DNA from: the human T2T-CHM13v2.0 reference genome, Homo sapiens
DNA: 64,000 bases
Assembly: GCF_009914755.1 (NCBI RefSeq)
Contig: NC_060944.1
Reading direction: 5' to 3' (one strand)
The translations under genes were made by a program, and so were the position numbers. The notes under the pieces are model-generated. The model was given only the letters and a program-made list of their open reading frames with translations. It was not told where the DNA came from and did not search any database. Shown here in pieces: positions 17,087 to 53,900 of this stretch. Numbering within the stretch: position 1 is the first letter of the stretch; every line of letters starts with the position of its first letter.

Positions 17087-20000
17087 CTTTCTCTTTCTTT
17101 CTTTGGCTTTTTAACATTTTTTTATTTTTTATTTTTCTGGATACATAGAAGGTATATATATTTTTGGGATACATGAGATATTTTGATTTAGATATGCAGT
17201 GTGTAATAGTCACAGGTAAATAAGGTATCCATCACCTCAAGCATTTATCTTTTGTATTCCAAACAATCCAGTTACATTCTTTTAGTTATTTTAAAATACA
17301 CAATTAAATTATTGTTGACTACAGTCACCCTGCTGTGCTATGAAATAGTAGGTCTTACTCATTCTAACTACTTTTTTGTACCCATTAACCATCCCCACTC
17401 CCCCCTGCCAGCCTGTACTGCCCTTCTCATCCATCCTTCTACTAGTAACCATTCTTCTACTCTCTATCTCCATGAGTTGAATTGTTTGAATGTTTAACTC
17501 CCAGAAATAAGTGAGAACATGCAATATTTATCTCTCTGTGCCTGGTTTATTTCACTTAACATAATGATCTCCAGTTCTATCCATCTTATTTCAGATGACA
17601 GGATCTCATTCTTTTTTATGGCTGAATAATACTCCATCGTGTATAGGTACCACATTTTCTTTGTCCACTCATCTGTTGATGGACATTTAGGTTGCTTCCA
17701 AATTTTGACTGTTGGGAATAGTGCTACAAGAAACATGGTAGCAAAGATGTCTCTTTGATTTCCTTTCTTTTGGGTATATACCTAGCAGTGGGATTGCTGC
17801 ATCATGTGGTAGCCCTATTTTTAGTTTTTTTGAGGAACCCCCAAGCAGTTCTCCATAGTGGGTGTACTAATTTACATTCCCACCCACAGTGTATGAGGGT
17901 TCCCTTTCTCCACATCCTCACCAGCATTTGTTATTGCCTGTCTTTTGGACTTTTGGATAAAATCCATTTTAACTGGGATGAAATGATATCTCATTGTAGT
18001 TTAGATTTGCATTTCTGTGATGAGCAGTGATACTGAGCACATTTCCATATATCTGTTTGCCATTTGTACATCATCTTTTGAGAAATGTCTATTCAGACCT
18101 TTGCCCATTTAAAAAACCAGATTATTAGATTCTTTCCTATAGAGTTGTTTGAGCCCTTTATATATTCTGGTTACTAATCCCTTGTCAGGTGAGTAGTTTG
18201 CACATATTTTCTCCCATTCTGTGGGTTGTCTGTTCACTTTGTTGATTGTTTCCTTTGCTGTGTGGAAGCTTTTTAACTTGATGTAATCTTATTTGTCCAT
18301 TTTTGCTTTAGTTGCCTGTGCTTGTGGGTGTTATTCAAGAAATCTTTGCCCAGTCCAGTGTCTTGGAAAGTTTCCCCAATGTTTTCTTTTAATAATTTCA
18401 TGGTTTGAGGTCTTAGATTTAAGTCTTTAATCTATTTTGATTTGATTTCTGTATATGGCAAGAGATAGGGATCTGGTTCTATTCTTCTGCATATGGATAT
18501 CCAGTTTTCCCAGCACCATTTATTGAAGAGACAGTCTTTTCCCCAGTTTACGTTCTTGGTGCCTTTGTCGAAAATGTGTTCACTGAAGGTATGTGGATTT
18601 GTTTCTGGGTTATCTCTTCTGTTCCATTGGCTTATGTGTCTGTTTTTATGCCAGTACCATGCTAATTTGGTTACTATAGCTTTGTAGTATGATTTGAAGT
18701 CAAGCAATGTAATTCTTCCAGTTTTGTTCTTTTTGCTCAGGAGAGCTTTGGCTATTCTGGGTCTTTTGTGGTTCTATATACATTTTAGGATTATTTTTTC
18801 TGTTTCTGTGAAGAATGTCATTGGTATTTTCATAGGGGTTGCATTGAATCCATAGATTGCTTTGGAAAGTATGGACACTTTAATGTATTTATTCTTCTAA
18901 TCCAGAGACATGGAACATCTTTTCTTTTTTGTGGCCTCTTTTTTCATCAATGGCTTATAGTTGTTATTATAGATCTTTTACTTCTTTGGTGTTAATTCTT
19001 AGGTGTTTTATAACTATTGTAAATGGAATTACTTTCTAGATTTCTATTTCAGATTGTTCACTGTTGACATATAGAAATGCTACTAATTTTTGCATGTTGA
19101 TTTTGTATCCTGCAACTTCACTGAATTTATTTATCTGTTGTAATCATTTTTTGTTGGAATCTTTAGGTTTTTCCAAGTATAAGATCATATCATCTGCAAA
19201 CAAGTATAATTCAACTTCTTCCTTTTCAATTTGGTTGCTCTTTCTTTCTCTTGTCTAATTGCTGTAGCTAAGACTTCTAGTACTCTGTTGAATAAGAGTA
19301 GTGACAGTGGGATTCCTCATCATGTTCCAGATCTTGGAGGAAAGGCTTTCAGTTTTTTTTCTCATTCAGTATGACACTGGCAGTGAGTCTGTCATATATG
19401 GCTTTTACTATATTGAGGTATGTTTCTTATATACCAAGTGTTTATGAGCATTTTTCTTAATCATGAAGGGATGTTGGTTTTTATCAATTGCTTTTTCAGC
19501 ATCAACTGAAATGATCATATGGTTTTTGTCCTTCATTCTGTTGATATATCAGATTGATTGATTCATGTATGTTGAACCATCTTCGCATCCCTGGGATAAA
19601 TACCACTTGATCATGATGAATTATCTTTTTAATGTGCTGTTGAAATTGGTTTGCTAGTATTTTGTTGAGGATTTTTGCATTAATATTCATCAGGGATATT
19701 GGTTTGTAGGCTTTCTTTTTTTGATGTATCTTTGTCTGGGTGTGGTATTAGGGTAATACTGGCCTCACATAATGAGTTTGGAAGTATCCCCTCCTCCTCT
19801 ATTTTTCAGAATCTTTTAAGTAGGATTGATATTAGTTCTTTAAATATTTGGTAAAATTCAGCAGTGAAGCCAGTGGGTCCTGGGCTTTTCTTTGCTGGCT
19901 TTTTAGTATGGCTTTGATCTTATTACTCATTATTGGTCTGTTAAGATTTTCTTCATGATTAAATATTGGTAGGTTGCATATGTCTAGGAATTTATACCTT

Positions 20001-23232: not shown

Positions 23233-24164
23233 TAGTACCTTCGGGGTAGTAAATATCATTGATTCATGTGGGCTTGAAGAGATGCTGTAATATTTTTTAG
23301 ATTATTAAGAAGGCTCTACTTAAACAGGTGATTTTTTATAATCATTGTGCCATGGGTGACTTGAGTTAAGCAACCAGACCCTTTCTTTAAAATGTAATTA
23401 CAATTGCTTTCAACATTCTTTTTTTTAAAAAAAAAATTCTTTTTTCTCCTTTTTCCATTTTTGATACTTCCAAGGGCATTTTTATATGTTCTATTAAGGA
23501 AATCCCTGCTGTGGCAGATGCTAGCAGCAAATACTCTAGAGCTGTCTGTTGTTTCTGCCTTGGATGAGATTTTATAGCATTATTGAGCATTTCAGAACAT
23601 TATATCAGAAGTGCACGCTGCAGAGTTTGGTTGTAAACTTAAGGTTTCCATTGCCATTTTAGAAACCTGCTTCCTAACATAATTTACTTTCAGTATCTGA
23701 AAATATTAAAAGACCCAAAGCAAATAAAACAAGAGCAGTATCTATTCAGTTTTGATTTGTGATGCCTTTTGATTATGGCGATCCCACATAATTAATAATG
23801 TGCTTTATTTGAGAATCCTGCATTATATAAGCTAGCTATGAAAGTCACTGTACAAAAGGGGGCATGTGTTACACTTTTTTCCCCATAATTACTCTGAGCA
23901 CTGTACCAAAAAGCACTAATAGAAATGTGGCGTCTGTTGACTTCATATCTGGAGAATAAAATCAGCCAAACCACAGGGGTGGAATTAAGAAGTGACCCCT
24001 TCTACCAACCCCAGCCCCCTCCAACTTAGTTTCCTTCAAATGCCCAGACATGAAATTCTGATCCAGCAAAAATGACAATGTCTAGAAATCTGACTGTTCT
24101 GAACTAGAATCCTCAGCGACCCTGCCTCCAGCCTCCTCCACCACTTTCTCCCCCATGGAATTTA

Positions 24165-24755
24165 CCTCCCCCCCTCTCTCTCCCTCCTCTCCCTCCCCCT
24201 CTCTACCTCCCCTCCCTCCTCTCCCTCCCCCCTCTCTCCATCTCTGCCTTCCCCCCTCCCTCCCCACCCTCCACCTCTCTCTCTCTTTCCATCCCTGCCC
24301 TCCCTCTCTCCCTCCCTGTCCCTCCCTCCCTCCCTCTCTCTCCCTCTCTCGCCCTCTCTCGCCCTCTCTCGCCCTCTCTCGCCCTCTCTCGCCCTCTCTC
24401 GCCCTCTCTCGCCCTCTCTCGCCCTCTCTCTCCCTCCCCCTTCCTTCTCTCTCTCTGTCCCTTCCGTCCCTCTCTCTCCCTGCCCCTCCCTCCCTCTCTC
24501 TCCCTGCCCTTCCCTCCCTCTCTCCCTGCCCCTCCCTCCCTCTCTGTCTCCCTGTCCTTCCCTCCCTCTCTCTCTCTCCCCCTGCCCGCCCCTCCCTCTC
24601 TCCCTGCCCCCCCTCCCTCTCTCTCTCTCTCCCCCTGCCCGCCCCTCCCTCTCTCCCTGCTCCTCCCTCCCTCTCTGTCTCTCTCCTTGCCCCTCCTCAC
24701 TCACCCGCCTCCCCTCTCTCTCTTCCTCTCTCTCTCCACCTCTCTTCTCCCTACC
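24165..24755. repeat. C/T-rich polypyrimidine tract incl. (GCCCTCTCTC)8 at 24351-24430
   Basis: About 590 bp almost entirely C/T on +; eight perfect decamers. Confidence 0.95.
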
Positions 24756-40719: not shown

Positions 40720-41620
40720 TTGGTGGTATTGATGCTAGTTGTGTTGATGTTGATGCTGGTGGTATTGATGTTCTTGCTGCTGATGTCAGTAGTGTTGATG
40801 TTGCTGATGTTGGTGCCATTGCTCTTGATGTTGATGCTGATGTAATGGTGTTGATGTTGGTGGTGCCATTGTTGGTGGCGGTGGTGCTGATGCTGGTAGT
40901 GTTGATGTTGGTGGTATTGATGTTGATGGTATTGATGTTGGTGTTGTCAATATTATTGATGCTGGTGGTACTGATGTTGCTGATACTGTTAGTGGTGCTG
41001 ATGTTGGTGGTGCTGATGTAAGTGGTGTCAGTATTGTTGATGTTGGTGGTGTTGATGTTGGTGGTGTCAATATTGTCGATGGTGGTGTTGATGTTGGTGG
41101 TATTGATGTTGCTGATGGTGGTGTCAATATTGTTGATGGTGTTGATGGTGGTGGTGTTGATGTTGGTGGTGTCGATATTGTTAATGTTGGTGGTGTCGAT
41201 ATTGCTGATGTTGTTGGTGTCGATATTGTTGATATTGGTGGTGTTGATATTGTTGATATTGGTGGTGTTGATATTGTTGATATTGGTGGTGTTGATGTTG
41301 CTGATGCTGATGGTGGTGTCAGTATTGTTGATGTTGGTGGTGTTGATGTTGGTGTTGATGTAGGTGGTGTTGATATTGTTGATGTTTGTGATGTTGATGT
41401 TGATGGTGGTGGTGTTGATGTAAGTGGTGTCAATATTGTTGATGTTAGTGGTGTTGATGGTGGTGGTATTGATGTTGCTGATGCTGATGTTGGTGGTGTC
41501 AATATTGTTGATGTTGGTGATGTTGATGTTCTTGATGCTGATGTTGGTGGTGTCATTGTTGATGTTGATGGCGGTACTGATGTTCCTGATGCTGATGATA
41601 GTGATGTTGGTGTTGGCTGG
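40720..41620. repeat. (GAT/GTT/GGT)n low-complexity array with 21-bp subunit (gatattgttgatattggtggtgtt-like)
   Basis: Directly visible; strongly G/T-biased on +. Confidence 0.92.
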
Positions 41621-47897: not shown

Positions 47898-48339
47898 GTG
47901 CTCTGAGGACCTCAGGTGGGATGAGTTTGCCCTAGCCCTTTACTCCAGCTGTCTTCTGTAAAGGACGAGGGAACCTAGCATTCAGCCCCAGCTTCTCTCC
48001 TCGGAATGAGTCTCCTTCCAGTAGAGGATAGAACCCCACGTGTCCTGAGCCTTGAGTAGGAGATGGGGGCGTATTGTGACTTGCCGGGAGCATGGCCTCC
48101 AGGCTGCATGGCGGGGGCAGGTTTCCATGCTTACGGTGGTCCTCACTGCTCATGGAAAGGAGCTTCGGACACCCAGGTCCCTCCTGAGCCTCCCTGCACT
48201 GTGGCTGTGGAGGTCAGGCTGCCTGTGGTTGTGTTTTCGTAGCTCCTGGAGCCCTGGTTGCGGAAGCCAGTAGGCACCTTTGCCCACTCATCCTCAGCGT
48301 CAGGCAGTCAGGAGCATCTGGGTTGGGGGCACAGCCCCG

Positions 48340-48500
48340 GACCTTCATGCTGCTCACTCTGGCCAGGTACTTTCATCCCCTATGCCTCAGTTTCGCCACC
48401 TAGAAGGATAGCAGTGCCTCTTGCTCTGCCCTGTTAAAGGTTATGCGGGACTGGGGTGCAGGTGTGCCTGGTTCAGAACAAGGATTCGATGAACGGCAGC
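48340..48500 (+). mobile_element. MIR fragment
   Basis: 'cccctatgcctcagtttcgccacctag'. Confidence 0.55.
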
Positions 48501-50841
48501 TGTGACTTCATTCTCAGCGCCTCCTTTCTACCCTGCTTTAAAGAAGGCAAGTGTGAGTGTGCTAGGGGGGCTTAGGGTTGTTTGTGGGCCACTTCTTTAT
48601 CTAACTGGGCCCTGATGCTTCAGACAGTGTCCCTGAGGTCACACAGGGAGGAGGGCTCCAAGCCAGAATTTAGACCTCAGCCTGCAGACACAGGACAGAT
48701 CCCAGCCCACAAACGCAGGCCAGTGCCACCTGCCATCCCATGAGGGCAGGAACACGGGGGTGTCAACCTTGAGCTCCTCACCTCTGTGCTGAGCAGACAC
48801 CAGGAACAGGGCTTATGAGCAAGGCTTTGGGGACGATGAGGAGACCCTGAATTCATCTGCACCTTGAGCCGGATACCTCTGAGTGCTCCTGCACTCCCCC
48901 AGCCTGTACCATGGAACCTTGTTTTCTCCCCTCCAGATGTGGGCATCGATTCTGTCTGTGGCAGGGGTGGTTGGAAGGGTCAGTGGCACCATTATGCAAA
49001 GCACCCAGGAGGCACGGGCGCAGCTTACATGTCCCTGAGTCATGCGCTAGGCCATGAGAACTATTATTATTAGTTTTATGACTCTTGTTGCTATGACAAC
49101 AGCGCTGGGTGTGAGGGCTGTCACTTCCCTGTCGGAATCACTGTGGCATCCTCAGCCAGGAGGAGGAGGCCCAGCCGAATGGAGCAGGGCGTCCCCTGGC
49201 CTCGGGATGGTCCCGTGTGTCAGTAACATGTTCATACTACTGTTGTGTTTGTCAAATAATGGAAGTATCATCATAAGCTGCACTGGGAAATGGAAATTAA
49301 ATTTTTCAGAGGATGCACGGTGCTGATAAAGGATGGGCACCAAGGCAGCCACGTGCACAATGATCACCAATTATAAAGCCATTGCTCACTCGCGTTCGGA
49401 ATTGCAGCGTGAATTAAGATGCTTGTTTGGGAACAGAGTCCCCAGTAGTTGCTCATTACAATTCCACATCACGGGCGTGGAGAGGGAGAGAAACAAAATG
49501 CAGTGTCTTTCCACCTGGGTGGCTGCCTGTGCCGACTCTGGGTCCTGTCTCAGGCCCTGCAGCTCACTGCAAAGAGACTTGAGTAACCAGGTATATTTGT
49601 TGTGCTGGGAAAACACAGAAGGAAGGGAATGTCTGCATTCTGCAATGTGTGCTCTTTCCTCTCAAGACACAGAGAGGAAAAGACCTCTGAGAGGCACAGA
49701 CACCTGCGTATCATAAGAAGGTAGGGCTGTGTGACTGATGGGAAGAGGAACTGTCTCTGCAGCATTAGGCAGAGGCATTTTCTGTGCATGTTAATATTTA
49801 GTCTTTATAAATCCTGTTTCCTTCATATCGTTGGCGTGTCAAGTACTTGACGTATAGCCTCACAGCCCATCCAGAATGAGCCTTGAGGTTGAACTGGCAC
49901 TGGGACATCCAGCCCCCAGTGCAGGCATGCCCTCAGGCCCACGCAGCCGCTCTTGATGTGGAGGCAGGAAATGGAAACTCTTCAAATTCCTGAGCACTCA
50001 GCTCTCTTTGCAGCATTGTGCTAAGCATATCTCTCCTTGACATCGTGTCATTCCTGTGTCCACAGCAGGCAGGCCCTTGGGAATGGCTCTGGTGAAATGG
50101 GGAGGAGAGAACTTTCTTCTCCGACAGACGGTTCATGATTTCCAAGGTCTTCTCTGGTTAAGACCAGAAACATGTTTCTGTAGAGCCCAAAACAGGCCAC
50201 ATCCGCTCCTGCTCTGAGCTACAATAGACTCAGGCTGGGGGAGGTGGCGCTGCCATCCGCCATCTCCAGTCTCCTTATCTGATGTTTAGAGCTTCATAGT
50301 TTAAATGGCAATCATTCCTTGAAGCCTGCAGCCTGCGATAATACAGCTAATACATTATTGCCTCTGGCTTCCGTGCAGAACAGCGGTTAGAGACGGGTGG
50401 AAAGAGAGAGCATTGGGGTGACTGAGACAAATGGAGTGTGGCCTGCTTGGGAAATGCTGAAAAGTGTTGGTGTTTACCTGGCTACGTACTTGGCCACGGA
50501 GAGTCCAGGTGGGAAGAATTTATTAGGTGAGCGATGTAGCTGGAACGAGGCCTGGCTGAGATTCAGGAGACGGCTGCTGCCGTCTCTGCCCCCTCATCCT
50601 TGCTGAATCTCAGAACCTTTGGGCCTGCATCTCTGCGGCCCGGAGACGCTGACTCCAGTTGCCTAACAGAGCTGTGGTGAGACTCAAAGGCCACACAGAA
50701 GCAGCGTGTTCCGGAAAGCATGCCGTGCCCTGTGAACTAGAAGAGGGTACTGGAATACTAGCTATCTTCACAAGCACCACCCCGCCACTGCCTCCACCAT
50801 TCGTTAGGGAGCCACTCATTATGGGACGGACCACCAGACGC

Positions 50842-50881
50842 GACTAATGAAACTTTTCTGTTCTCTCCTTTCTAGGTAAGT
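50842..50881 (+). other. Candidate recursive splice site (branch point, polypyrimidine tract, AG|GTAAGT)
   Basis: gactaatgaaacttttctgttctctcctttctag|gtaagt; branch A at 50847 (-29), no intervening AG. Confidence 0.7.
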
Positions 50882-50999
50882 GATTCCGGTGCTAACGCTG
50901 GACACGTGTGTCCTTGTATATACCTGTTGCGCCTGCGAGAACATGTTCTCCACTCCCCCAGCTCCTCTGAGGAATGCCTGAGTGAGGACCCCGTGTAAA
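50876..50999 (+). other. Candidate 124-nt cryptic/RS poison exon
   Basis: Bounded by the strong acceptor at 50875 and donor AAA|GTAAGA at 51000; stop codons in all 3 frames. Confidence 0.55.
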
Positions 51000-53900
51000 G
51001 TAAGATGAACCGAGTGGGCACGTTAGCCCAGGCCGTTACCCTTTAGTGGGCGCGTGAGGGCTGTGGGTCACAGTTTCCAAGACTGATGGCATTGCATGAT
51101 CTTTCCTGGTCAAACTTGTGCAAATGAAGAAGTGGAGTGGGGGACGGGGGTGGGATGAGATAGCTAAGCAGTGAGCCAGAAAAAAAGCAGTTGACGTGGA
51201 CGATCTAACCTGAGAAACCATCATAGGAAATGATGACTCTCTGCTCCAATGCAGCATCTACAAGGCCCAAATGAGATAGAACACAGAGTTTCAATGTGAA
51301 CTTCAAAACCTGCTCCTGCTGTAAGGTGCTTTTCCCATCTTAGCAGCCTGGTGGTCTACTTTGTCGTTTTTCCTGAGTGTAGCTTGGAAGCTTCCATCTC
51401 TAAATCTTTAACATTTTCTGGGAATTTGCTTTCTGTTTCCCAGGGTTGTCCTGGGACTGGCCTCTGATGAGGCAAAGGTTGTTCTCTTGGTGTAGCCACT
51501 GGTTCAAGAAGTGTTTTGGGTTAAAATGTTAAAAATACATAGCTAGAGATTATTTTTCCAGCTCATTGAAAGAGGAGTTACAGATGCAACATTGTCTGTG
51601 GTTGTGTGGTTAAGAAGTGTTCCCTTTGCTCCTGAGTCATATGTGGAAAATCTTCCCTCTAACCCTGATACTGCACAATTTGTCAGTGTTGGTGAGACTC
51701 ATATTTAGCTGTGAGCTTCCTGGCGTCCAAAGGATAGAGGAAAATAAGAGCACTCAAAACAGTCGCCAACATCACGAAGGAGAAACTGCCGTTATTTTCT
51801 TTTTTGTTACTGGCAGAAATTACTCTTACCAGAACTAGCTTATTGCATAAGAATTACTCTGTACTGGGGCTCCTGAATTGGAGACATCAAATAATGTATT
51901 AAACCACATTCTTAACATTTCTGGAGAAGACACAGTGGAGGGTTCCTTGTGGTTGTTGGGGCAATTTATTTACTAAAACAGTGGGATCACACTGAAGTGT
52001 CGCTCACCGTGAGCATTTCTGCACGCCAAAGATGATTATGCCTAAATGAATATTCTTTTATTGGCTTGATGGAATCCCAGGGAGAACCTAGAATACCTAA
52101 AAAAAATAGACGCGTTGTAAATACTGTGCTGGGTACTCCTCCCAGCAAGACCTTGATGAGGACTGGGCAGGAGGCCCCTTGCCTGGGGTTGGGCTGCAAA
52201 TGTCCTGGGGTGTTTGTGGATGGAACAACTGGCTCTAAGAAACGGGATATACGTGATCAGGGCGAGGTCTTTGGGGAGAGAAGAAGCTCAACGTGGGCCC
52301 ACAGGAAATGTGTCCGTTCATAGTTGCAGGTGGAGCAACAGGTGAGTCAGGCAAGCATCCATTAGATCTTCAATCAGCTGCTCCACATTGCAAATATGAA
52401 GGATATGCTTTCAAAAAAGGACAAGGGAAAATAGGAAAAGGGGTCGTAAAAGTAAAGATAATCAGCCAGCATTACTGAAAGTGAAGAGAAAATTTCTTTT
52501 GAAAAAGCAACCCAGATGTTTGTCCGGCATGAGTGTGGTATTTGGGATCATGAATGCTGAAGAGTAAGTGTGTCCTGGATGTTGGCGTCGGGTCATCACT
52601 GACCCTAAATCTCCTCAAGTCTCACAGAAGGATGTAGGTCATATGTTAGAGGTAATATGTCATAAGGACATAGGTCATACTTTAACCTTGAATTCAGGGA
52701 ATAACATTTGGCTTTAGGGTAATTGACTCCAACATAGAATGAGCCACATTCTCTATGCATTGGGATAATTCTTATTTATCATTAACTAAATTATTAATAA
52801 CTAATGATATAAATTACATAATTACTGTTTATTAAACAATTTGTATTGAATGTTATTAACATGTCAAGCCTGTGGGTACAGTGGACACAATTTTCTTGTG
52901 AATTTCATCTGAGGATTGGCATCTGTTCCCACAGCGTGAAGGTGTTTTTGCTGTCTGAACTCTGCGTCTTTGGCTCACCCAAACAGGGAGAAGAACATGA
53001 GCCAGGTCGGCCAAGGAGGCCTTTGCTTATGGTCTGGTTTTCTATAGGGGCCAGAGATACGCCCCCATCCCACTCGCCATCCCTAGACCACAGCAGCCTT
53101 CCCCATGTCCTGTTGTTGGACCGAGGCACGCCTGTCTTGGGAACAAGGACCTCACTATTTGCAACTTTCTTGGAGGGCCTTCAGGATCTCAGAGCTCTGT
53201 GCCTCAGATCCCGCAGGTAGTACTGAAGACTGGAGCCTGTTCCAACGGGGCTGGCTCCGTGGCCGGCCACACACTGGGGCGCGAGCCTCTGCTGCCCTCT
53301 GTGTTGCCCATGTCTTCCTATGGCTGAGGCTGGCTTAGCCTGAAATTCAGGAGGTTCCTCTCTCAAGGAAGCCTATTAGATACTCAGATGTTCGGATTGT
53401 GGTTTTTTTCTCACTGTCTCCAGAGACACATCTACAGCTAAAATGATGCTTGGGATGGCTCCTTAAACATGACCTTAGATAGAGGTGGGGTGTTTGTGGT
53501 GACATCCTGGGCCTTCTCTTCCTTTAACTCAGGGGATCTCAACGGGGGGCAGGGGGTGGCTTTTGAAGCCCATAGAGGTTGTGACTGCCCAAGATCCCAC
53601 CGTAGGCAATGGATCCGTTTCATCCTGACCGCATTCCTCCAGGCGCAGACACGTGTGGTGGCTGCTTTTCAGCAGAGCGGAGGATCCAGGCCCCAGCCCC
53701 TCGTTAAACATCCAGCCCCACCTGCATGTCAGGCACAATCTGGACGTTGCAGTGACAGCGTCTTTGCCACATGCAAATCTGACTAATGGCCTAAATTGGT
53801 ACCAGAAGAACAATTACATGGACTCTTTCCTGATGGCTGTGCGTGGTGGCACTACCCTTGATCTCGGCACAGAGTTGGTCAGAAAGCACACGCTCCGCTT

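What the first reader, a model, noticed from the sequence alone, without database searches (positions are those of the whole stretch)
50842..51005. Consensus recursive splice site with an all-frame poison RS-exon in the middle of an apparent giant intron
Seen: in unique, non-repeat sequence there is a consensus branch point (GACTAAT, A at 50847), an AG-free pyrimidine tract (cttttctgttctctcctttc) and TAG immediately followed by a perfect donor GTAAGT (50876-50881). A second donor, AAA|GTAAGA, lies 124 nt later at 51000. The segment between has stops in every frame (TAA 50877-50879, TGA 50881-50883, TAA 50996-50998). Established: vertebrate recursive splicing in very long neuronal introns (e.g. 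CADM1/2, ROBO2, HS6ST3, PDE4D, NCAM1) uses this architecture. An RS-exon is defined, then skipped via the regenerated 5' splice site, and its inclusion triggers NMD. Inference: the window lies in a long + strand intron removed in two steps here. I cannot tell whether the site is already catalogued.
Basis: partly seen in the sequence, partly recalled or inferred. Interest (0 to 1): 0.85.

Follow-up and report, generated by a model that had tools for sequence, protein, structure and literature searches.

The report
Known recursive splice site in CDH4
This is a real-looking two-step ("recursive") splice site at the midpoint of the 492-kb second intron of the cadherin-4 gene, but a 2018 study of human neurons had already listed it with supporting RNA reads, so it is a correct rediscovery and not a new find.

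Summary
The octamer AGGTAAGT alone is at chance level: 2 found, 1.89 expected. The composite motif (pyrimidine tract, AG-free branch point, AG|GTRAG) is rare: 1 in the window against 0.01 in shuffles. It is met by 1 of 1,226 sense-strand AGGT sites in the 292 kb of the intron I scanned.

The site is hg19 chr20:60076877 in the supplementary tables of Zhang et al. 2018 (PMC6110456). There it has 3' splice strength 13.26, PhastCons 1, 6 unique exon-2-to-site junction reads and a program-detected saw-tooth, all in forebrain neurons. The coordinate mapping is exact.

New here: the site lies at 50.9% of a 492,446-nt intron. Both exon 2 and an internal alternative first exon end in AAG in phase 1. 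Step one therefore rebuilds a perfect AAG|GTAAGT, and inclusion reads Gly-Lys-stop.

The 124-nt RS-exon is inferred only, and "stops in all frames" is uninformative. An alternative promoter 2.3 kb upstream could mimic the saw-tooth. Verdict: interpretation supported; already known.

The parts
50842..50848 (+). Branch-point consensus GACTAAT (yTnAy, branch A at 50847, 28 nt upstream of the 3' splice-site G)
   Evidence: Read directly. It is the only yTnAy found 18-40 nt upstream with an AG-free run to the AG.
50853..50873 (+). Polypyrimidine tract (cttttctgttctctcctttct, one G), AG-free
   Evidence: 94% pyrimidine over the 18 nt scored. Zhang 2018 S1 Table gives a MaxEntScan 3' splice-site strength of 13.26, the highest of the 9 putative sites listed for this intron.
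50874..50881 (+). Recursive splice site AG|GTAAGT: 3' splice site ends at 50875, regenerated 5' splice site starts at 50876
   Evidence: It equals hg19 chr20:60076877 by exact spacing: 2,329 nt from the alternative exon's end, and neighbouring listed sites at -7,300 and +5,389 nt also fall on AG|GT. Zhang 2018 reports 6 total and 6 unique exon-2 junction reads in FB neurons at 120 min 4sU.
50881..50883 (+). TGA that is in frame after either upstream exon (both phase 1): ...G|GT AAG TGA
   Evidence: In-silico joins translated (alternative first exon; exons 1+2): both read ...GK*.
50876..50999 (+). Putative 124-nt RS-exon (inferred; its 3' end is not established)
   Evidence: 124 nt, not a multiple of 3. 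No read evidence was accessible. Alternative ends would give 106, 178, 295 or 445 nt.
51000..51005 (+). Candidate RS-exon 5' splice site AAA|GTAAGA, weak relative to the regenerated site
   Evidence: 7 of 9 in-register consensus matches. U1 duplex -4.5 kcal/mol against -11.4 for the regenerated AAG|GTAAGT. One of 5 GTRAG in 50877-51376, where 1.03 are expected; 11 of 635 tiles reach 5.
48475..48552 (+). Alternative CDH4 first exon (48475-48546; ATG at 48489; ends AAG in phase 1) with a GC donor GCAAGT (48547-48552), 2,329 nt upstream of the recursive site
   Evidence: Hub annotation for the exon. Sequence read. ORF and phase. Listed as an intron start (hg19 60074548) in Zhang 2018 S1 Table.

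Best explanation
Window 50875/50876 is a genuine recursive splice site that halves CDH4 intron 2.

Step 1. The exon-2 donor (AAG|GTAAGG, at window -199,886) is spliced to the strong acceptor ending at 50875, using the branch point at 50847. This removes 250,761 nt.

Step 2. The join creates AAG|GTAAGT, a perfect U1 site. It is spliced to exon 3 (window 292,561) and removes the remaining 241,685 nt, so nothing of the site stays in the mRNA.

Role of the downstream donors. By analogy with the published vertebrate model, recognition of the acceptor is probably helped by exon definition against weak downstream donors (51000 and four others). If one of those donors is used instead of the regenerated site, a short exon is included. 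It reads Gly-Lys-TGA and would make the mRNA an NMD target.

What is shown and what is inferred. The sequence shows the motifs, the intron geometry, the regenerated site and the in-frame stop. Published tables show that the acceptor is used with exon 2 in nascent neuronal RNA, and that AGGT is conserved. Inferred: that the second step starts at 50876, that an RS-exon is defined, and that inclusion leads to NMD.
For: Sequence anatomy. Composite motif 1 observed against 0.01 in shuffles. It is the only one of 1,226 sense AGGT sites in the 292 kb of the intron I scanned.

Exact identity with hg19 chr20:60076877.

Zhang 2018 tables, read as supplement text:
- S1: 3' splice-site strength 13.26 and PhastCons 1.
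- S2, sheet FB: 6 total and 6 unique exon-2-to-site junction reads at 120 min 4sU.
- S3, sheet FB: read-density ratio 0.406, p = 3e-4, in the direction expected for a + strand gene.

Gene structure measured here:
- Exon 2 ends CAAG|GTAAGG in phase 1.
- Exon 3 acceptor found; the site lies at 50.9% of 492,446 nt.
- U1 duplex energies: regenerated site -11.4, native exon-2 donor -10.0, the 51000 donor -4.5 kcal/mol. This fits the published competition model, in which the regenerated site wins (main text passages).
- Five GTRAG donors in the following 500 nt against 1.03 expected, as that paper reports for RS sites in general.
- CpG observed/expected of 0.72 around the site, rank 7 of 637 tiles, window median 0.24. 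This is compatible with constraint.
Against: - Support is thin: 6 reads, one time point, one of three cell types. There were 0 reads at 10-60 min and 0 in steady-state RNA, and no steady-state saw-tooth (NA).
- S3 is the program-detected list. The 16 manually confirmed sites are marked only by colour, which the text copy does not keep, so I cannot say CDH4 is among them.
- An alternative CDH4 promoter and first exon lie 2.3 kb upstream. With 1-kb bins over +/-10 kb, that promoter could by itself produce the density step.
- No CDH4 row occurs in the paper's lariat table or other tables, in the supplements of the lariat-based catalogue PMC10156609, or in those of PMC6224609.
- Exon-2-to-site junction reads would also arise from plain inclusion of a cassette exon.
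- PhastCons 1 could reflect the RefSeq enhancer feature 49830-51029 (hub annotation) rather than the splice motif.
Confidence: 0.78

Rival explanations
1. It is an ordinary, rarely used poison or cassette exon of CDH4, not a recursive site. Exon 2 is spliced to 50876 and the exon is kept, using a downstream donor. The GTAAGT at its first base is coincidental and unused, and the product is degraded by NMD.
For: Junction reads from exon 2 to the site do not distinguish inclusion from recursion. Five candidate donors follow. An in-frame TGA would hide the product from steady-state RNA, which fits 0 steady-state reads. In mouse cortex, 46 of 84 AGGT candidates with junction reads turned out to be unannotated exons (PMC8797253, main text passage).
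Against: The regenerated AAG|GTAAGT is a 9 of 9 consensus match with U1 duplex -11.4 kcal/mol, against -4.5 for the 51000 donor, so it should outcompete the downstream donors. GTAAGT directly after a strong acceptor is expected about 0.035 times among the 9 comparable sites (arithmetic). A density step in the saw-tooth direction is reported. The placement at the midpoint of the intron also argues against coincidence.
Confidence: 0.1
2. It is a chance splice-like motif inside a conserved regulatory DNA element (enhancer or promoter-proximal region of the internal CDH4 promoter). The few junction reads would be splicing noise, the saw-tooth would come from transcription starting at 48475, and conservation would reflect DNA function.
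For: The RefSeq enhancer feature 49830-51029 covers the site (hub annotation). An alternative first exon lies 2,329 nt upstream. CpG observed/expected of 0.72 is compatible with a hypomethylated regulatory element. The octamer alone is at chance level. Only 6 reads support use.
Against: Six reads with six distinct offsets passed a filter of at least 3 unique reads. The full composite motif is the only one among 2,447 AGGT sites on both strands of the 292 kb scanned. The regenerated site is perfect for both upstream exons. No junction-read row exists for the alternative exon's intron in S2, since CDH4 occurs there once. That gives no sign the internal promoter was active in those cells, though it is also what one would see if its transcripts skip the site.
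Confidence: 0.08
3. It is the acceptor of an exon belonging to an unannotated transcript (an lncRNA or enhancer RNA, or a short CDH4 isoform starting at 48475) that ends nearby. It would have no role in removing intron 2.
For: The alternative TSS is 2.4 kb upstream, and that exon's GC donor could pair with this acceptor. The RefSeq enhancer overlaps the site (hub annotation).
Against: The junction reads listed are for the intron that starts at exon 2, not at the alternative exon. No such exon is in the hub's RefSeq table. Rfam finds nothing in the window: 0 matches.
Confidence: 0.04

Closest known systems
The same site as catalogued: CDH4 RS site hg19 chr20:60076877 in Zhang, Fu, Mou, Xue & Weng 2018, PLoS Genet (PMC6110456), S1-S3 Tables
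   Same: Identical position. It is 2,329 nt from the alternative exon's donor in both coordinate systems, and two neighbouring listed AG|GT sites coincide at a constant offset.
   Different: The paper never names CDH4 in its main text (search did not return it). It lists no RS-exon, lariat or RT-PCR for CDH4. The geometry, regenerated donor, reading phase, in-frame stop and alternative-promoter caveat are worked out here.
Vertebrate recursive splicing with RS-exons (Sibley et al. 2015, Nature; e.g. CADM1/2, ROBO2, HS6ST3, PDE4D, NCAM1, ANK3). I could not read this paper: it is not held. It is known here through passages in PMC6110456 and from recall.
   Same: Deep-intronic YAG|GTAAGT in the longest intron, near the start of a long neuronal cell-adhesion gene. 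Strong acceptor and conserved AGGT. The regenerated donor is stronger than the downstream donors. A premature stop results if the RS-exon is kept.
   Different: Whether it is among that paper's roughly 435 putative sites could not be checked. Read support is far lower than for ANK3, which has 91 reads.
Drosophila ratchet points (Ubx, kuz and others; Duff et al. 2015; Joseph et al. 2018, 2022)
   Same: Juxtaposed acceptor and donor that regenerate a 5' splice site for stepwise removal of a long intron, with short cryptic exons aiding recognition (abstract listing).
   Different: Fly introns often carry several ratchet points with hundreds of sites per genome. Here there is a single supported site at the midpoint of the intron. 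No homology is implied.

Membership tests
Vertebrate recursive splice site (RS site with RS-exon) | [quoted passage not shown] | tested here: met
   TAG|GTAAGT at 50873-50881. The intron is 492,446 nt, and the site is 250,761 nt from exon 2 and 241,685 nt from exon 3. It is 2,329 nt from the nearest annotated splice site.
Vertebrate recursive splice site (RS site with RS-exon) | Strong acceptor: branch point, pyrimidine tract, AG-exclusion zone | tested here: met
   Published MaxEntScan score 13.26; I did not recompute it.
Vertebrate recursive splice site (RS site with RS-exon) | The first step regenerates a strong 5' splice site from the upstream exon's last bases plus the site | tested here: met
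   Exon 2 and the alternative first exon both end in AAG, giving AAG|GTAAGT. This is 9 of 9 consensus matches with U1 duplex -11.4 kcal/mol.
Vertebrate recursive splice site (RS site with RS-exon) | Junction reads joining the upstream exon to the site (the splicing intermediate) | not testable with these tools
   Published: 6 total and 6 unique reads, FB neurons, 120 min 4sU; none at other time points or in steady-state RNA; no CDH4 rows in the PA1 or H9 sheets.
Vertebrate recursive splice site (RS site with RS-exon) | Saw-tooth step of nascent RNA density at the site | not testable with these tools
   Published, program-detected: ratio 0.406, p = 3e-4 at 120 min; NA in steady state. Manual confirmation is unknown because the colour coding is lost. 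The step is confounded by the alternative TSS 2.4 kb upstream.
Vertebrate recursive splice site (RS site with RS-exon) | Conservation of the AG|GT motif across vertebrates | not testable with these tools
   Published PhastCons (100-way) of 1 over AGGT. No vertebrate genomes are on hand. CpG retention, rank 7 of 637 tiles, is only an indirect hint.
Vertebrate recursive splice site (RS site with RS-exon) | RS-exon defined by a downstream 5' splice site, normally skipped, with a premature stop if included | tested here: inconclusive
   Sequence potential is met: 5 GTRAG donors within 500 nt against 1.03 expected, and an in-frame TGA two codons in. Use was not shown: no RS-exon junctions for CDH4 were accessible.
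Vertebrate recursive splice site (RS site with RS-exon) | Lariats of the two half-introns (5' end at the exon-2 donor with branch near 50847; 5' end at 50876 with branch before exon 3) | not testable with these tools
   No CDH4 row in Zhang 2018 S4 Table or in the supplements of the lariat catalogue PMC10156609. Absence is weak evidence, because lariat reads are rare.

The most novel reading that the evidence does not exclude
The site is a shared hub for two CDH4 promoters. The internal alternative first exon (48475-48546) carries a weak GC donor (AAG|GCAAGT) and faces a 244-kb intron. By first splicing to the acceptor 2,329 nt downstream, it would swap that donor for a perfect AAG|GTAAGT before the long second step.

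Exon 2 and the alternative exon end in the same three bases and the same phase. Both would therefore regenerate the same donor and be policed by the same in-frame TGA if the RS-exon is kept. On this reading the site is a donor-upgrade and quality-control device for promoter choice, not only an intron-halving device.
Probability: 0.15. Interest if true: 0.45.

Novelty: already known. Interest (0 to 1): 0.2.

Why it matters
CDH4 (R-cadherin) is a long neuronal and retinal adhesion gene whose 492-kb intron 2 must be removed accurately. A midpoint recursive site with an immediate in-frame stop in its RS-exon would be both a processing aid and a fail-safe.

Deep-intronic variants at 50842-50881 or at the downstream donors could therefore lower CDH4 output, and ordinary exon-centred annotation would not flag them.

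For the scan, the case shows that a reader working from sequence alone can recover a bona fide catalogued recursive site. It adds little new biology beyond the geometry and phase details and the caveat about the published saw-tooth.

Tried and rejected
- Octamer test: AGGTAAGT alone is not enriched, so I rejected it as evidence.
- 'All-frame poison' argument: rejected, since 55% of 124-nt segments have stops in all frames.
- Unconstrained U1 duplex folding of downstream GT sites gave out-of-register artefacts, for example 51150 at -8.5. I used in-register consensus counts instead.
- Sibley et al. 2015 could not be opened by PMC id or DOI. Its id was later confirmed from a reference list, but the paper is not held.
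- Earlier findings of this scan were not open to the session.
Whether mouse Cdh4 has the site is therefore unknown. Its main text does not name Cdh4, as search did not return it.
- The 2026 catalogue PMC13622621 does not name CDH4 in its main text. I did not request its overlap table (Table S3).
- Other literature searches found no main-text discussion of the site: CDH4 + 'recursive splicing' gave 1 irrelevant paper, CDH4 + 'recursive' gave 20 papers of which the 15 listed are irrelevant, and CDH4 + 'cryptic exon' gave 2 irrelevant papers.
- Rfam scan of the whole window: 0 matches.
- The fourth listed neighbour, hg19 60039981, did not map at the constant offset. This is presumably an indel between assemblies, since the upstream half is 3,877 nt longer in T2T than in hg19.
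Full report
**Observation**

The sequence at 50842-51005 is as described.
- GACTAAT is at 50842-50848. Its branch A at 50847 lies 28 nt before the acceptor G.
- An AG-free pyrimidine tract spans 50853-50873, with one G.
- TAG is directly followed by GTAAGT at 50876-50881.
- AAA|GTAAGA starts at 51000, 124 nt later.
- Stops occur in all three frames of 50876-50999.
- A 281-nt stretch around the site matches only itself in the T2T assembly, and the place is not in the hub's repeat list.

**Is it more than chance?**

The octamer AGGTAAGT is not: 2 in the window against 1.89 expected.

I defined a composite of AGGT, at least 80% pyrimidine over 18 nt, a yTnAy 18-40 nt upstream with no AG after it, and GTRAG. 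It occurs once in the window on both strands, against a mean of 0.01 in 200 dinucleotide shuffles; 2 of 200 shuffles had one or more.

Shuffles destroy natural pyrimidine tracts, so I also used real DNA. I scanned 292,446 of the 492,446 nt of the host intron. Of 1,226 sense AGGT sites, 21 pass the tract filter, 5 of those also have a branch point, and 1 also has GTRAG, which is this site. Of 1,221 antisense AGGT sites the counts are 17, 4 and 0.

Given those 9 strong acceptor-like sites, roughly 0.28 would carry GTRAG and 0.035 GTAAGT by chance (my arithmetic, assuming equal base use). Sequence alone is therefore suggestive, not conclusive.

The 'all-frame poison' point carries no weight: 945 of 1,727 (55%) 124-nt segments of this window have stops in all frames.

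**Already catalogued**

A supplement search of Zhang et al. 2018, PLoS Genet (PMC6110456) found CDH4 in three tables.
- S1 Table lists hg19 chr20:60076877 in intron 59829993-60318618 with 3' splice strength 13.26 and PhastCons 1.
- S1 also lists the same site in the alternative intron that starts at 60074548, at a distance of 2,329 nt.

In the window, the alternative exon ends at 48546, and 50875 - 48546 = 2,329. Two further listed sites, 7,300 nt upstream and 5,389 nt downstream, fall exactly on AG|GT at window 43575 and 56264. A fourth, 36.9 kb upstream, does not map at that offset. This is as expected if the assemblies differ by indels there. The identity is secure.

**What the paper shows for the site**
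- Method (main-text passages). Putative sites are AGGT in introns of at least 5 kb, more than 2 kb from annotated splice sites, with MaxEnt at least 5 and PhastCons at least 0.5. Candidates need at least 3 unique junction reads from the upstream exon. Saw-tooth sites need a two-fold or greater density step over +/-10 kb with permutation p < 0.01, followed by manual inspection.
- S2 Table, sheet FB (H9-derived forebrain neurons). CDH4 has 6 total and 6 unique junction reads at 120 min 4sU. It has 0 reads at 10, 15, 30 and 60 min and 0 in steady-state RNA.
- S3 Table, sheet FB. The density ratio is 0.406 with p = 3e-4 at 120 min, and NA in steady state. The direction matches other + strand sites such as CADM2 (0.37-0.40).

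**Limits of that evidence**
- S3 is the program-detected list. The 16 manually confirmed sites are marked only by colour, which the text copy loses.
- CDH4 appears in no other table of that paper, including the lariat table.
- It does not appear in the supplements of PMC10156609 or PMC6224609.
- No paper in the library discusses it in main text.
- Sibley 2015 is not held.

**Gene geometry, worked out here**

I fetched the CDH4 5' end and the region around the predicted intron end from the assembly.
- Exon 1 carries the ATG and ends CGG|GTAAGT.
- Exon 2 ends ...CAAG|GTAAGG in phase 1, at window -199,886.
- Exon 3 begins after ...ctcttgcag| at window 292,561.
- Intron 2 is 492,446 nt. The site splits it into 250,761 and 241,685 nt, so it lies at 50.9% of the length.

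**Mechanism**

After step one, the last three bases of exon 2 (AAG) meet GTAAGT. This gives AAG|GTAAGT, a 9 of 9 match to MAG|GTRAGT.

U1 duplex energies:

| Donor | kcal/mol |
|---|---|
| Regenerated AAG\|GTAAGT | -11.4 |
| Native exon-2 donor | -10.0 |
| Alternative exon's GC donor | -7.8 |
| AAA\|GTAAGA at 51000 | -4.5 |

Under the published competition model (passages), the regenerated donor should win and the downstream segment should be skipped.

If the segment is kept, the frame reads ...LLQ-G-K-stop, using TGA at 50881-50883. This holds whichever downstream donor is used.

The donor at 51000 is one of five GTRAG in the next 500 nt. They would give exons of 106, 124, 178, 295 or 445 nt. 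The expected count is 1.03, and 11 of 635 tiles reach 5. The 124-nt RS-exon is therefore plausible but not established. NMD is inferred from the standard 50-nt rule.

**Timing (inference)**

The site is 253,437 nt from the annotated gene start, and exon 3 is about 495 kb from it. Junction reads appearing at 120 min but not at 60 min fit an elongation rate of roughly 2-4 kb/min. They suggest the acceptor is used before exon 3 is transcribed. Incomplete run-off during DRB treatment is a caveat.

**The main caveat**

The alternative first exon 48475-48546 has its ATG at 48489, ends AAG in phase 1 and uses the GC donor GCAAGT. It lies 2.3 kb upstream, inside the +/-10-kb window used for the saw-tooth test.

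Initiation at that exon would raise downstream density without any recursion. The RefSeq enhancer feature 49830-51029 (hub annotation) also covers the site, so PhastCons 1 might reflect DNA function.

CpG observed/expected around the site is 0.72 (rank 7 of 637 tiles, window median 0.24). This fits either constraint or hypomethylation.

S2 has no junction-read row for the alternative exon's intron. Either that promoter was silent in those cells, which would clear the saw-tooth, or its transcripts do not use the site.

**Verdict**

I put about 0.78 on a real recursive site. The rest goes to a plain poison exon, a chance motif in a regulatory element, or an exon of an unannotated transcript.

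The site is already in a public catalogue, so novelty is low. The additions here are:
- the exact midpoint geometry;
- the perfect regenerated donor shared by two upstream exons;
- the in-frame TGA;
- the multiplicity of candidate RS-exon donors;
- the alternative-promoter confound.

The boldest reading not excluded is that the site also upgrades the GC donor of the internal promoter's first exon.

Noticed in passing
window 48475-48552: The alternative CDH4 first exon uses a GC donor (AAG|GCAAGT). It encodes MNGSCDFILSASFLPCFKE in phase 1, matching the phase of exon 2. It sits in a 55-60% GC stretch (48000-49250) without a CpG island (CpG observed/expected 0.1-0.5).
   Followed up: partly
window 18188 (AG ends here), + strand: A second RS-like motif, gttactaatcccttgtcag|GTGAGT, with a near-perfect TACTAAT branch point but a short tract (67% pyrimidine). 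It lies inside a stretch the hub lists as masked repeat (18131-18359) and is not in Zhang 2018 S1 Table.
   Followed up: no
window 43575 and 56264, + strand: Two further AG|GT sites listed only as 'putative' in Zhang 2018 S1 Table (3' splice strength 6.19 and 7.46; PhastCons 1 and 0.92). Both are followed by GTAGT, a poor donor, and neither has a junction-read row.
   Followed up: partly
window 50800-51100: Unusual CpG retention for intronic DNA: 15 CpG, observed/expected 0.72, rank 7 of 637 tiles against a window median of 0.24. It coincides with the 3' part of the RefSeq enhancer feature 49830-51029.
   Followed up: partly
window 24101-24500 and 41001-41400: The highest CpG observed/expected tiles of the window (0.9-1.06). 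The first overlaps stretches the hub lists as masked repeats (24167-24353, 24420-24691). The second is not in that list and was not examined.
   Followed up: no
L002 (chr20:63037438-63047437), positions 1-2000: The CDH4 promoter and exon 1 lie in a dense CpG island (70-82% GC). Exon 1's donor is CGG|GTAAGT, and intron 1 is only about 2.25 kb, in contrast to the 492-kb intron 2.
   Followed up: partly
hg19 versus T2T, CDH4 intron 2: The upstream half of the intron is 3,877 nt longer in T2T (250,761 against 246,884 nt), and the downstream half is 56 nt shorter (241,685 against 241,741 nt). The difference lies upstream of window 43575, since the offset is constant from there to 56264.
   Followed up: no
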